Shown: positions 30,001-37,000 of the stretch, in pieces
How positions within the stretch are numbered: position 1 is the stretch's first letter
Layout of the letters: each line of letters opens with the position of its first letter
Source of the DNA: Pecten maximus
Taxonomy: Eukaryota
Length of the DNA stretch: 64,000 nucleotides
Direction of reading: 5' to 3'
Assembly: GCF_902652985.1 (NCBI RefSeq)
Contig: NC_047029.1
Location: forward strand, 3,410,001 to 3,474,000
Made by a program: the position numbers

Positions 30001-31028
30001 CCATATTCTTCTTTCTAATGCGACAATGCTTCGAACTACGTGTAGTGGCCAAACGCTTCATGACCTGTGTGAGAAAATATAGGAATGGAATTCATACATA
30101 GATCTGAAAAAATAATAATAATAAAATAATATCTAATGTTCCGTGGTGTACACGTTTTTGTTATAAGCCATCTACGAATACATGTATACAGCATAACTTT
30201 CCAACACAGCCTGAAAAAATTGACTCTGGAGACATCCTCCCACATAAAAAGCGACTCTCCTTACTGACATTTGATTCCCCTTGATGTACCTGAAAAATCC
30301 TCTGTGGGGCAATTCTCCAACCGAAAAAACAATGGATTCGAATTGTACACATACTTGTGTTACATATATCCAACACAGTAGAATTACTCCATTGAATGTT
30401 ATCAACTAATAAGGTTAATTTTCAATATATTCATTAAGCTCACCGTGTCCGAAGTCATGTGCCATGACAAGGTATCCGTCACCCATCCACTGTTCCTAAA
30501 ATCTCCACTTTTAATTAACGACTGACCAGATTTTGACTAAAGTTGATCAGAAACTTCCTTTGCGAAATGAAACATTTTTACATAAAAGAGCACTGCTCCG
30601 TTGGACAAGAGAGACAAGGCCCAATAGGGGAAATAGGCATTGTGTAATTTCTTCAAATCACTACTAGTCGCCCGAAATTTTCAGACCCCAAACCTCTTTT
30701 TGTTATTGTCATCGTTTGTAGAGGAAACTAATCAATCAAAATGATAAAAATTAAGAATGAATGGAACAAAAAACAAAAACAAAACAAAAAAACCAAACAA
30801 AAATAAACTTGAAAACAATAATATTATTATCATCTTTATTTCCTCCACAAAGAAGAGCATGATAATACAAATACAATCAATGTAACGTAGATAATACGTG
30901 ACTATTTACATAGTGATATCAAGCAAAAAAGTGCATGCGAGTTCACAATATAATGTTATATACATATACATGTAGTTAATTATCGTAGATATAAGTTGAG
31001 TAATATATATGTCTTATATTCCATGTAC

Positions 31029-31067
<39 letters not shown>

Positions 31068-34000: not shown

Positions 34001-37000
34001 AGATCGATTGTTATCAGTAAACTGATAGCGGTCACCTCTTACTTTAACATTAAAGTCACCAATAATAAACACTTTACCCTTCACTACTAGTCGCCCGAAA
34101 TTTTCAGACCCCAAACCTCTTTTTGTTATTGTCATCGTTTGTAGAGGAAACTAATCAATCAAAATGATAAAAATTAAGAATGAATGGAACAAAAAACAAA
34201 AACAAAACAAAAAAACCAAACAAAAATAAACTTGAAAACAATAATATAAGGCGACTCACTTTAATTACTATAGGTGGGGAGGGGTGTCACTTTACCATAC
34301 TACATTGTACACTGTTTTGGTCCCACAGTGATTACAAGAGTCCTCGCGCATTTCCATCCCGGCCAAGAGAGTTTATATAACTTTAGTCGCAATCATTGTA
34401 AAACAAATAAAGTTTACACCTTTTTTAAATGCTTGTTGATTTGGTGTTTCTAAAAATAGATTAATTATATATATACTTCCCCTTGGTATTGTCCAACAGT
34501 GTCAAATATCTTGCATGCCATTGAAACATGACAATTAAGCAATAACTCTGAATAGTTTTTGAAGAATACGTGTACAGATGGATTTTAATGTATTAGTTTA
34601 TTTTTATTGTTTGGTGATTAAACGTTAAGTATTTCCAAATGCTTCACAAAGCACGAGTCTCTATCATTACATAACCGAGTGTTACTGGCATTCATTGACT
34701 TTTAAAAATCAAAATAATCATTTTATAATATGACTACATTTTGTTTTACAGCCTTTTGATTTCGGCTAATGCATGGTTTTATTAACCTCGGTTGATATTA
34801 TTCTCATGTTAATAAAACCATGTTCAACCTTATCAAAAGGCTATGATTTACAGTAAAATGGCATGGTACATTGTACTGTTATGAAGGTAAACAGTCTTGT
34901 TTTTGTCATTTTCTTTGTAGCAGAGAAATGCGATCCAGTCAGAGAACCTCGTAAGCATAATGAACGACTCCACCCAGATCAGGAACTATTTTGGCAGTGA
35001 GTAAAAAAAAATAATATAAAAAGGCAGACCACCTCTATCAAAGATCTCGTTTTTAATATTACTATTATCTAAACAGCTGATGAAAAGGGAAATGGTAGAC
35101 AACCACTATCAAAGATCTCTGTTTAAATTATCTGAGTATTATAAGAAGTGAATTTCTGTTATGAATTTTGCCGTTAAAAATCATCAAATCAATATTTTCA
35201 AAGTCAGAAAAAAACCCATTGAATTTATTATCTTTATTACTTATACCTTGAAATAAAGCTTGTCCAGAATTATATTTTGACAGCACATCAAATGCCTTAG
35301 ATTACCATTGATGTGTATTCTAGATAACTTGTCTTAATTTTATTTACAGTAACGTGGAGCAGGGAGTTGTGTAAGTAAGTACATTTTTGTCCTAGCTTAG
35401 TTTAGCCGGAGCAATATTTTATATTGTATATCAAATGTCAAACCTTAATTACTTCTTCAGGTATCATTATTTGAAATATTTTTATGTTAAGTTGCAGAAA
35501 TGACATACTTAGGAATGGTAAAAAACGTTGCCTTATGTTTTAATGAGTGGCTACAATACTTCATTTAAATATAACAATGACATCGTAGTTTTATATTCCG
35601 GGAAAAATGTCTTATTTCAGCTTGGATTACCAAAGTGATGGTTTGTAATATCAGAAATAGAATAATGTGACAGATATGAAAGATTAATTGAGTTAATTAA
35701 GTATCTGGATATTTTTTCCGATCTGGATATTTTTTCCGATCTACATGAAGATGCATGCAGACAGAATCTTGTAGATCAGAATCACAGTGATATTGTAACC
35801 AGTTTCATAAAAAATGAAATATTAAAGTAAAGTTATTGATATTATGGTTTTTTTTTTTGTTCCAGAGTAATGCTTGCGATGTTGGATGTATCCTTTTAAT
35901 TGAGCAACCTGCATCAGCTGTTAATGTCACTAAACAATGATAGTGTAAAGGACCAGCCCATACCCAATCTGTTGACATATTGAGCATTGTACTTCTTACA
36001 CGAGTTTCCCGTCTGAGCAGCTAGCTATAAATGTGCATTTTGACATGTAAATCGTTTATAATAACAATTCACTTGATGATGTCTAAGGAAAATAACAATT
36101 ATAAGTTTCCTACATATCAGCACTATAATACTATGAAATCTGTGTCTTTGAACAGGGAGTCGTTTTCTTAATTACCTGACCACGTTTTCAAGCGCTTCAG
36201 CTTCAACTTGCAGTACCAGGGTTTGGGGTCTTTGTAGCAGTTTTTTTTTTTTACAATTTATTTATATGTAGTTAATTTGAAGCCTGCTTAATATACACAT
36301 GCATTCCACTTCTTTTCTGATGTTTCGGAGGCATTAGAATCCAATTACTACTTCAGCTGTTGGATTGGCTATGAACAACACGTCACACACATTTGTTGAG
36401 TCATAAAACACGTTTCATTGCTAGTTGATTGATTTACAGGCGTCTGTATATCTGGTTAGTATTTATAGAAAAATATTAGCCCGTACTACTACTAAATTAA
36501 GAGTAGGGGTTAGTATTTATAGAAAAAAAAATAATAGCCCGTACTACTACTTATTCAAAAGTAAGGGTTAGTATTTATAGAATAAAATATTAGCCCGTAC
36601 TACTACTTATTCAAAAGTAAGGGTTAGTATTTATAGAATAAAATATTAGCCCGTACTACTACTTATTCAAAAGTAAGGGTTAGTATTTATAGAATAAAAT
36701 ATTAGCCCGTACTACTACTTAATTACGTGTAGGGGTTAGTATTTATAAAAAAAATATTAGCCCGTACTACTACTTAATTACGAGAAGGGGTAAGTATTTA
36801 TAGAAAAAATATTAGCCCGTACTACTACTTAATTACGAGAAGGGGTTAGTATTTATAGAAAAAATATTAGCCCGTACTACTATTAAATTAAGAGTATGAG
36901 TTAGTATTTATAGAAATAAAAAAAACACGTACTCCTACTAATTTAAAAGTAAGGGTTAGTATTTATAGAATAAAATATTAGCCCGTACTACTACTTAATT

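What the first reader, a model, noticed from the sequence alone, without database searches (positions are those of the whole stretch)
30658..34247. Young LINE with a perfect 167-bp target-site duplication
30658-30824 and 34081-34247 appear identical, and the ~1000-codon ORF2 remnant has no stops, so the insertion is recent. Typical non-LTR TSDs are tens of bp or less; very long ones are known mainly for RTE-type elements. With the ~220-bp case at 4221/8139, two different families in 64 kb show this. That points to widely staggered second-strand cleavage that routinely duplicates exon-sized host segments.
Basis: partly seen in the sequence, partly recalled or inferred. Interest (0 to 1): 0.68.

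Follow-up and report, generated by a model that had tools for sequence, protein, structure and literature searches.

The report
Young truncated LINE with 167-bp target duplication
A recently inserted, 5'-truncated jumping gene (a LINE retrotransposon) in an invertebrate genome is flanked by a perfect 167-bp copy of the DNA it landed in, about ten times longer than usual, an uncommon but already described outcome of LINE insertion.

Summary
30658-30824 and 34081-34247 are identical over 167 of 167 nt and occur nowhere else in the window. They bracket a 3,256-bp non-LTR retrotransposon on the minus strand (30825-34080). It has the tail of an AP-endonuclease domain, a reverse transcriptase, a CX2CX9HX4C motif and 998 open codons.

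Both ends of the element are pinned independently:
- 5' end: a second copy in public data (P0001, 992 of 999 aa identical) runs on into endonuclease sequence where the window copy switches to the repeat.
- 3' end: a conserved terminal motif sits 8 nt from the repeat. It ends the 3' UTR, 8-21 nt before unrelated flank, in 9 of 18 related loci.

So the 167 bp is target DNA, a real and very long target-site duplication.

The wider claim is weak. The window's other LINE also has a long duplication (223/227 bp, 95.5%). But 0 of 8 related loci show one, and a SINE-like element in the window has an 11-bp duplication. Membership of the RTE clade is not shown. Very long duplications are already reported for 5'-truncated L1 insertions. 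This is a new member of a known kind, of modest interest.

The parts
30658..30824 (.). Target-site duplication, copy next to the element's 3' end (167 bp; 49% A on the + strand)
   Evidence: Identical to 34081-34247. Begins 8 nt after the conserved 3'-terminal motif of the element.
30825..34080 (-). 5'-truncated non-LTR retrotransposon (LINE), 3,256 bp
   Evidence: Pfam RVT_1 at 1.4e-24 plus the tail of Exo_endo_phos_2. 99% identical to P0001 and 47-53% to the full-length relatives P0002-P0004.
30825..30862 (-). Conserved 3' terminus: CTCTTC-TTTG-TGGAGG small hairpin, AAATAAAGA, then TGATAATA
   Evidence: The motif GGAGGAAATAAAGA lies at 30833-30846. The same block aligns in all 10 aligned sequences, the window plus 9 loci. 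The hairpin appears in the minimum-energy fold but is not better than shuffles (z = -1.1).
30825..31081 (-). 3' UTR (257 nt) with an internal (TA)n tract at 31030-31065
   Evidence: The weak mir-297 hits are the (TA)n tract, far below the gathering score.
31082..34078 (-). ORF2 remnant, 998 codons plus stop, with no internal stop or frameshift
31298..31354 (-). CX2CX9HX4C motif in the region after the RT domain
   Evidence: Read from the translation. The same spacing occurs in LINE no. 2 and in its neighbouring fragment.
32204..32857 (-). Reverse-transcriptase domain
   Evidence: RVT_1 at residues 432-649 of the 1,022-aa translation.
33794..34075 (-). C-terminal remnant of the AP-endonuclease domain (begins ...GKVFIIGDFN)
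   Evidence: Exo_endo_phos_2 profile positions 32-116 of 117, E = 0.0043, below the Pfam cut-off. Aligns to residues 146-151 onward of the full-length relatives.
34081..34247 (.). Target-site duplication, copy next to the truncated 5' end
   Evidence: P0001 has endonuclease sequence (…ILESLYDVYSD) where the window copy has this repeat. There is 1 nt of overlap (A of the Lys codon) at the junction.
4221..4443 (.). Second case: left copy of a ~225-bp flanking duplication
4444..8138 (+). Second case: composite insertion. It holds the 3' fragment of one LINE (4450-4755 and 5158-5247, split by a ~400-bp insert with a hairpin) followed by a 5'-truncated LINE of a related family (ORF 5428-7985 with one frameshift near 7450)
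   Evidence: RVT_1 at 4.4e-32. tblastn of the C-terminal ORF finds the fragment at 47-57% aa identity..
8139..8365 (.). Second case: right copy of the flanking duplication
   Evidence: 212 matches, 10 mismatches, 6 gap columns against 4221-4443.
40600..40815 (+). Internal control: SINE-like retroposon with a tRNA-like head (about 40611-40804) flanked by the 11-bp duplication CTGACCTTTGA
   Evidence: The 11-mer occurs exactly twice in the window, with 0.06 expected. Alignment with a second copy at 37771-37940. ARAGORN calls no tRNA gene.

Best explanation
A LINE of an active family inserted by target-primed reverse transcription into AT-rich DNA. The region is non-coding as far as tested. Shown: the element lies on the minus strand, is cut short at its 5' end inside the endonuclease domain, ends at its family-typical 3' terminus, and is bracketed by two identical copies of 166-167 bp of target DNA. 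Inferred from the standard TPRT model: the + strand was nicked at 5'-...CAATAATAT^AAGGCG-3'. Its 3' end primed copying of the element RNA from its short AT-rich repeat tail. The start of the duplication, ATATTATTG in the element's sense, resembles that tail. The other strand was broken 166-167 nt downstream at 5'-...TAGTAGTGA^TTTGAAG-3'. The incomplete cDNA was joined there with 1 nt of microhomology, and both single-stranded target stretches were filled in, which gives the two copies. Zero differences in 167 nt (95% upper bound 1.8% between copies), an unbroken 998-codon frame in a dead-on-arrival copy, and a 99.3% identical second copy all say the event is recent. The unusual part is only the distance between the two breaks. 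The most likely reading is the rare 'long TSD' outcome that goes with aborted, 5'-truncated insertions. Whether the far break was made by the element's nuclease or by the host is open.
For: The repeat is perfect and unique. Element identity rests. The 5' boundary is set by P0001 (992 of 999 aa identical) and P0003/P0004, which continue upstream into endonuclease sequence where the window copy has the repeat. The 3' boundary is set by the block CTCTCC-loop-GGAGG-(A/T)AATAAAGA plus a microsatellite. It lies 190-530 nt after the ORF2 stop and 8-21 nt before unrelated flank in 9 of 18 related loci, and 8 nt before the repeat in the window. No alternative short duplication lies outside the two copies; only TT is shared (read directly). 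An older second case in the window has accumulated 10 substitutions and 2 indels, so it is not an assembly duplicate. Literature, passages only: a class of long duplications above 20 bp is recognised for L1 (PMC4245944). 5'-truncated L1 insertions in HeLa cells came with 'extremely long TSDs' among other target alterations (PMC2912911). [quoted passage not shown]
Against: Typical duplications are far shorter: about 15 bp for L1, about 5 bp for zebrafish ZfL2-1 (PMC4245944), 7-15 bp for RTE (PMC6007223) and 6-18 bp for bivalve SINEs (PMC11481361). None of 8 related loci with at least 169 nt of 3' flank has a long flanking repeat. It is not known, however, whether those metagenome contigs span both junctions. 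No empty allele, spanning read or other copy's flanks could be inspected, because no host genome or read set was available. The look-up of the P0001 contig's small ORFs could not be made, and a search with an ORF crossing the 3' boundary found nothing. The nick sites are read from one event, so no site preference can be claimed.
Confidence: 0.85

Rival explanations
1. Host-made far break. The insertion started by TPRT (or at an existing nick), but the second-strand break 167 nt away was not cut by the element. It was a host lesion, a replication intermediate, or the next accessible linker beside a nucleosome, and repair synthesis filled the gap. This differs from the main explanation only in who sets the distance.
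For: Both insertions in the window are 5'-truncated, meaning aborted. Two LINE families only about 24% identical in RT both give about 170-225 bp, which fits a host-set distance better than two nucleases sharing an odd habit. In the literature, long duplications go with truncated L1 events thought to be healed by host repair (PMC2912911, passages). The lengths are close to one nucleosome repeat; this last point is the author's recollection, not a call.
Against: There are only two events. An 11-bp duplication at a SINE-like insert in the same window shows the host does not impose long distances on all retroposition. No chromatin or replication data exist for this sequence.
Confidence: 0.3
2. 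The 167 nt is the element's own 3' tail. The reverse transcriptase jumped from the truncated first template onto the 3' end of a second RNA of the same family and copied 167 nt, giving tail-body-tail with no real target duplication.
For: In the element's sense the 167 nt ends in ...ACTAGTAGTGA, which looks like a LINE trimer tail. The second case in the window does carry a LINE 3' fragment upstream of a truncated LINE. No short duplication is seen outside the two copies.
Against: The conserved terminus of this LINE group lies at 30825-30862, and in 9 related loci unrelated flank follows 8-21 nt after AAAGA. On that evidence the 167 nt lies outside the element. The upstream copy would have to start, by coincidence, exactly where the element's real 3' end lies.
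Confidence: 0.03
3. Assembly artefact. A heterozygous insertion was mis-resolved so that 167 bp of flank was written twice.
For: The identity is perfect, the insertion is young and so possibly polymorphic, and no reads could be checked.
Against: The two copies start and stop exactly at the biologically defined ends of the element, which an assembler has no reason to respect. The second case has diverged (10 mismatches, 2 indels), so long LINE-flanking duplications do exist in this genome.
Confidence: 0.06
4. A tandem 167-bp duplication was already there, and the LINE later landed exactly on the joint between the two copies.
For: The window is rich in tandem repeats.
Against: It needs an insertion at one precise base with no duplication of its own. 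No other 167-bp copies or partial units lie nearby. The same coincidence would be needed again at 4221/8139.
Confidence: 0.02

Closest known systems
Long target-site duplications (above 20 bp, 'L-TSD') of human L1, chiefly at 5'-truncated insertions in cultured cells
   Same: A 5'-truncated insert, a direct repeat of target DNA many times the usual length, and a short microhomology at the 5' joint. The category and its link with truncation are described in PMC4245944 and PMC2912911 (passages read).
   Different: The element here is not L1. It has no poly(A) tail, a hairpin-plus-microsatellite 3' end, and only distant RT similarity to L1 ORF2p (E = 4.5e-18 over the RT of the relative P0003). 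This is a germline copy fixed in an assembly, not a cell-culture event. The host is an invertebrate.
'Stringent-type' LINEs with a 3' stem-loop and microsatellite tail (CR1, CR1-Zenon and L2 groups, also RTE or RTE-X), the kinds reported in bivalves (PMC10294476, passages)
   Same: AP-endonuclease plus RT in ORF2. Upstream ORFs, taken as ORF1, occur in the full-length relatives. There is no poly(A). The 3' end carries a small hairpin, a conserved block and a short tandem tri- or tetranucleotide tail that differs between families.
   Different: These groups are reported with short duplications: about 5 bp for ZfL2-1 and 7-15 bp for RTE. The clade of the window element was not determined, because no reference RT set was at hand.
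   Same: A non-L1 LINE with AP-endonuclease and RT, inserted in AT-rich DNA or introns.
   Different: RTE-1 is 3.3 kb with one ORF of 1,066 aa and a very short repeat-only 3' UTR (PMC1291365, passages). Relatives of the window element are about 7 kb with two or three ORFs. The claim of long RTE-1 duplications is recalled only. Searches turned up no passage that states it, and the RTE papers read give 10-12 bp (SR3) and 7-15 bp.

Membership tests
Non-LTR retrotransposon (LINE) inserted by target-primed reverse transcription | Reverse transcriptase of the LINE type | tested here: met
   RVT_1 at 1.4e-24 and 87 bits against a cut-off of 29.6. The nearest solved structures to the relative P0003 are L1 ORF2p and R2 proteins.
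Non-LTR retrotransposon (LINE) inserted by target-primed reverse transcription | AP-type endonuclease N-terminal to the RT | tested here: met
   The window copy keeps only the tail (Exo_endo_phos_2, E = 0.0043, below cut-off). Related full-length ORF2s from loci L001, L002 and L005 carry Exo_endo_phos above cut-off, and Exo_endo_phos_2 is above cut-off in two of the three. The precomputed domains of P0003 and P0004 also list endonuclease families.
Non-LTR retrotransposon (LINE) inserted by target-primed reverse transcription | Variable 5' truncation with an intact, family-typical 3' end | tested here: met
   The 5' end falls at residue ~146-151 of full-length ORF2. The 3' block is shared with 9 loci.
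Non-LTR retrotransposon (LINE) inserted by target-primed reverse transcription | Flanking direct repeat made of target DNA, with no LTRs or terminal inverted repeats | tested here: met
   A 167-bp repeat lies outside both defined ends. No inverted terminal repeats appear among the 12 weak inverted pairs.
RTE clade | Placement in RT (and EN) phylogeny with RTE-1, BovB or SR2 | not testable with these tools
   No reference LINE protein set (Repbase, RepeatPeps) was available. Database hits carry no clade names.
RTE clade | Compact element of about 3.2-3.9 kb with one long ORF of about 920-1,070 aa (PMC1291365) | tested here: not met
   Relatives have an ORF2 of 1,152-1,259 aa, with further upstream ORFs of 763 and 307 aa (L005) or 369 and 511 aa (L001). 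L005 is about 7.1 kb between its candidate 8-bp duplications. The longer RTE-X type (mean 4.9 kb in bivalves, PMC10294476) is not excluded.
RTE clade | Very short 3' UTR made mainly of AT-rich tri- to pentamer repeats | tested here: inconclusive
   The 3' UTR is 257 nt with unique sequence, and only the last 8 nt (TGATAATA) are repeat-like.
Long-TSD class of LINE insertions | Target-derived direct repeat above 20 bp abutting both ends of one insertion | tested here: met
   166-167 bp.
Long-TSD class of LINE insertions | An empty site with a single copy of the repeat exists (allele or orthologue) | not testable with these tools
   No host genome, reads or related species were available.
CR1/L2-type 'stringent' LINEs | 3' stem-loop followed by short tandem repeats used for RT recognition | tested here: inconclusive
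   Sequence is conserved in 10 of 10 aligned ends. All 5 predicted pairs are kept, but none shows a compensatory change. The folds are no better than shuffles.

The most novel reading that the evidence does not exclude
In this invertebrate genome, aborted (5'-truncated) insertions of unrelated LINE lineages regularly end with the second break about one nucleosome repeat away (167 and about 225 bp). That would mean the distance is set by host chromatin or replication rather than by the element. LINE insertion would then be a steady source of 150-250-bp local duplications, large enough to copy a whole small exon with its splice sites. The 4221/8139 repeat contains one exon-like piece, with a cag|G acceptor and an AAG|gtaagt donor, whose acceptor is lost in the right-hand copy.
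Probability: 0.12. Interest if true: 0.65.

Novelty: new member of a known kind. Interest (0 to 1): 0.38.

Why it matters
This is a clean, datable example of an extra-long target-site duplication outside mammals and outside L1, with both element ends fixed by independent evidence. Such cases bear on the least understood step of LINE integration, which is where and by whom the second strand is broken. If a genome-wide census showed that truncated insertions in this host often duplicate 150-250 bp, it would point to a host-set distance and to a route for small segmental or exon duplications. As a single locus it is an uncommon but expected outcome. The practical lesson for annotation is that duplication searches capped at 20-50 bp (as in PMC6007223 and PMC2912911) would miss it.

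Tried and rejected
1. Element-encoded terminal repeat or template-jump tail. I took this seriously because the 167 nt ends in TAGTAGTGA. It was rejected on the conserved 3' terminus.

2. AATAAA as a poly(A) signal marking the RNA end. It is better read as part of the conserved block GGAGG(A/T)AATAAAGA.

3. Looking for the 167 bp in another copy. The listing of cluster members could not be run because the database was switched off. A protein search with the 57-aa frame crossing the 3' boundary found nothing, which says nothing either way.

4. Duplication lengths in relatives. 18 loci were fetched from MAG-labelled contigs. Self-blastn found no long flanking repeats. A short-word search near the 3' junction in 8 loci gave only chance-level 7-9-mers, except an 8-mer in L005 placed 22 nt before the ORF1 ATG. 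Whether the contigs span both junctions is unknown.

5. Host-gene context. I first took the exon-like pieces at 4243-4316 and 30440-30490 (shared ...AHDF...) for exons of the FSH1-like hydrolase gene. This was rejected, because that gene's HPGGHFIP exon is at about 45060. Pfam finds nothing in the short pieces, which were scanned one by one, and no wider paralogy exists.

6. Clade assignment failed. Pfam gives only generic domains. The upstream ORFs of relatives have no Pfam family. PDB hits are generic L1 and R2.

7. Rfam on 29500-35500 gave only sub-threshold mir-297 hits on the (TA)n tract.

8. Literature. Searches found no paper stating long duplications for RTE-1 or for mollusc LINEs. Supplementary tables of PMC11481361 and PMC10294476, which may list per-family duplications and LINE tails, were closed.
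Full report
**What is there**

The window is AT-rich (about 35% G+C), has no N and is full of minisatellite arrays. The closest protein matches to its mobile elements come from invertebrate and mollusc records. The host species was not determined.

The two stretches 30658-30824 and 34081-34247 are identical at all 167 positions, and the neighbouring bases differ on both sides. Self-blastn of 30400-34500 against the window finds no third copy. A whole-window self-comparison that ignored tandem arrays listed five dispersed pairs of 60 nt or more. Two of them are this pair and 4221-4443/8139-8365, and these two enclose the only two reverse-transcriptase ORFs found among 123 ORFs of 70 aa or more.

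**The insert**

Between the copies lies a minus-strand frame of 1,022 codons from stop to stop (31082..34150). It matches Pfam RVT_1 (1.4e-24) and the last part of the endonuclease model Exo_endo_phos_2, the latter below its cut-off. After the RT comes about 350 aa with a CX2CX9HX4C motif.

The best database match, P0001, is 992 of 999 aa identical. Full-length relatives P0003 and P0004 (1,157 and 1,153 aa, 52% and 47% identical) align from their residue ~146-151 onward. The window copy is therefore a LINE ORF2 cut off inside the endonuclease domain. Its first 23 codons (FPLQTMTITKRGLGSENFGRLVV) are read-through of the repeat, not element sequence.

**Are the ends of the element where the repeat begins?**

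- 5' side: P0001 reads ...ILESLYDVYSD-KGKVFIIGDFN, which matches ...LLESLYDVYSV-KGQV in P0003. The window reads ...GRLVV-KGKVFIIGDFN. Another copy of the same family thus carries endonuclease sequence where the window has the 167 bp. This places the truncation at 34080/34081 with 1 nt (A) that could belong to either side.
- 3' side: a scan of genome contigs with an alignment of 19 relatives returned 18 loci. Fifteen come from one MAG-labelled assembly and three from two others. These are eukaryote-type LINEs at 25-36% aa identity.
- Nine of the 18 loci carry the same short block downstream of ORF2: CTCTCC, a 4-6-nt loop, GGAGG, (A/T)AATAAAGA (AAGAAAG in L015 and L018), then a family-specific tri- or tetranucleotide run. 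The run is 8-21 nt long, for example (TAC)4, (TTA)7, (ATGA)4 or (TAAA)n, and unrelated sequence follows.
- Of the other nine loci, five end within or right after ORF2, and four (L004, L008, L016, L017) lack the block.
- In the window the block is at 30833-30846, followed by TGATAATA and then the repeat.
- The hairpin is invariant, so covariation says nothing: 0 of 5 pairs show a double change. The folds are not better than shuffles. The evidence here is sequence conservation and position.
- Taken together, the 167 bp lies outside the element on both sides.

**Rival readings**

I considered that the 167 nt might be the element's own tail, copied twice by a template jump. In sense orientation it ends in TAGTAGTGA, and the window's other LINE does have a LINE 3' fragment in front of it. 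The conserved terminus rules this out in practice.

An assembly duplicate cannot be excluded without reads. It would not be expected to respect the element's ends, and the second case has diverged, so it is not a duplicate of that sort. A pre-existing tandem duplication hit exactly on its joint would need two coincidences.

**Mechanism**

The anatomy (shown) fits target-primed reverse transcription (inferred):
- The first nick falls on the + strand after ...CAATAATAT.
- Priming occurs on the AT-rich trimer tail of the RNA. The start of the duplication, ATATTATTG, resembles the tails of relatives such as (ATT)n. This fits the reported link between LINE tail repeats and the first bases of the duplication (PMC6007223, passages).
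- The second break falls 166-167 nt downstream on the minus strand after ...TAGTAGTGA.
- The cDNA is aborted and joined with 1 nt of microhomology, and the gaps are filled in.

Zero differences in 167 nt put the divergence between copies below 1.8% at 95%. The 998-codon frame is intact in a copy that cannot have been selected, and P0001 shows the family was recently active.

**Is it routine?**

- The second case is real. The copies are 223 vs 227 bp, with 212 matches, 10 mismatches, 6 gap columns and K2P 0.047.
- It flanks a composite. First comes the 3' fragment of one LINE (4450-4755 and 5158-5247, 47-57% aa identical to its neighbour), split by a ~400-bp insert with a near-perfect hairpin. 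Then comes a 5'-truncated LINE (5428-7985, one frameshift) ending in a GGGCC-GATA-GGTCC hairpin, GGAATAAA and TTGAACTTGAA. One event with a template switch would explain it, and so would two successive insertions.
- The two LINEs are about 24% identical in the RT region. So 2 of 2 LINE insertions in the window have long duplications, and both are truncated.
- Against generality, 0 of 8 related loci with at least 169 nt of 3' flank have a flanking repeat detectable by blastn. It is unknown whether those contigs span both junctions.
- L005, a full-length copy, has a candidate 8-bp duplication: GTGGTATA lies 22 nt before the ORF1 ATG and again right after the tail.
- A SINE-like element at about 40611-40804 has an 11-bp duplication whose sequence occurs exactly twice in the window.
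- Published values are short: about 15 bp for L1 and about 5 bp for ZfL2-1 (PMC4245944), 7-15 bp for RTE (PMC6007223), 6-18 bp for 90% of bivalve SINE families (PMC11481361), and usually below about 20 bp in general (PMC12801901). All of these are passages found by term search.

**What is known**

- Duplications above 20 bp are treated as a separate class for L1 (PMC4245944).
- 5'-truncated L1 insertions in HeLa cells came with 'extremely long TSDs' among other target changes, as PMC2912911 reports from Gilbert et al., whose paper I did not read.
- L1 duplications are said to reach several hundred nucleotides (PMC1291365).
- By architecture the window element is not a canonical RTE. Relatives have an ORF2 of 1,152-1,259 aa and further upstream ORFs without Pfam families.
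- RTE-X, CR1-Zenon, CR1 and L2, all reported in bivalves (PMC10294476), remain possible. No RNase H domain was found. Nimb and Ingi were not assessed further. No RT phylogeny could be made.

**Side checks**

- Exon-like pieces were scanned one at a time.
- The piece inside the second duplication (4243-4316, minus strand) has consensus splice sites and an open frame, but no family match and no wider paralogy. 'Exon duplication' therefore stays a possibility only.
- The real FSH1-type hydrolase exons lie at about 45.0-45.5 kb.

**What stayed unchecked**

- The host genome, reads and empty alleles were not available.
- The cluster look-up could not be made.
- The supplementary tables of the two bivalve papers were closed.

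**Verdict**

The core interpretation, a young LINE with a perfect 167-bp target-site duplication, is supported. The RTE link and the claim that this is routine are not established. This is a new member of a known kind, of modest interest, and worth a genome-wide census.

Noticed in passing
window 4221-8365: The second long duplication (223/227 bp, 95.5%) flanks a composite: the 3' fragment of one LINE directly followed by a 5'-truncated LINE of a related family. Either one TPRT event with a template switch or two successive insertions would explain it.
   Followed up: partly
window 4756-5157: A ~400-bp insert splits the LINE 3' fragment. It holds a near-perfect hairpin (arms 5016-5046/5103-5133 at 97%, inner arms 5041-5060/5088-5107 at 100%), which looks like a MITE or foldback.
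   Followed up: partly
window 4243-4316 and 8161-8234 (minus strand): There is an exon-like piece inside the second duplication, with a cag|G acceptor, 22 open codons and an AAG|gtaagt donor. The right-hand copy reads acg|G, so the acceptor AG is lost. A short similar piece (…AHDF…, same acceptor context) lies at 30440-30490. No family match was found, so this is unverified.
   Followed up: partly
window 40600-40815 and 37771-37940: Two copies of a SINE-like element with a tRNA-like head and an (AAAC)-type tail. The copy at 40611-40804 has an 11-bp duplication, CTGACCTTTGA. ARAGORN calls no tRNA.
   Followed up: yes
window about 45060-45530 (minus strand): Exons of an FSH1/OVCA2-type serine hydrolase gene. 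Pfam FSH1 scores 3.6e-11 on 45276-45530, and a …HPGGHFIP… exon lies near 45060.
   Followed up: partly
window, many places (e.g. 5-1008, 15985-17829, 18667-21000, 36464-37643, 38497-40414, 46107-46740, 47528-47959, 53888-56135, 58254-58480): Dense minisatellite arrays with units of 17-55 bp make up a sizeable share of the window. Several give long spurious ORFs.
   Followed up: no
L001-L014, L016 (one MAG-labelled assembly); L015, L017, L018 (two others): Records titled as bacterial MAGs carry eukaryote-type LINEs with AP-endonuclease and RT, on contigs of up to 1.6 Mb. This probably reflects host DNA binned with the bacteria.
   Followed up: no
L004 4776-5816: A 522-bp tandem duplication (99.8%) lies just downstream of a LINE ORF2. 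It is not a flanking duplication.
   Followed up: no
L005 362-369 and 7493-7500: A candidate 8-bp target-site duplication, GTGGTATA, around a full-length ~7.1-kb relative with a 22-nt 5' leader.
   Followed up: partly
window 30825/8138 junctions: In both window LINEs the duplication starts with ATAT in the element's sense (ATATTATTG, ATATGCTTT). With only two events, this may be chance or may hint at a shared nick or priming preference.
   Followed up: no
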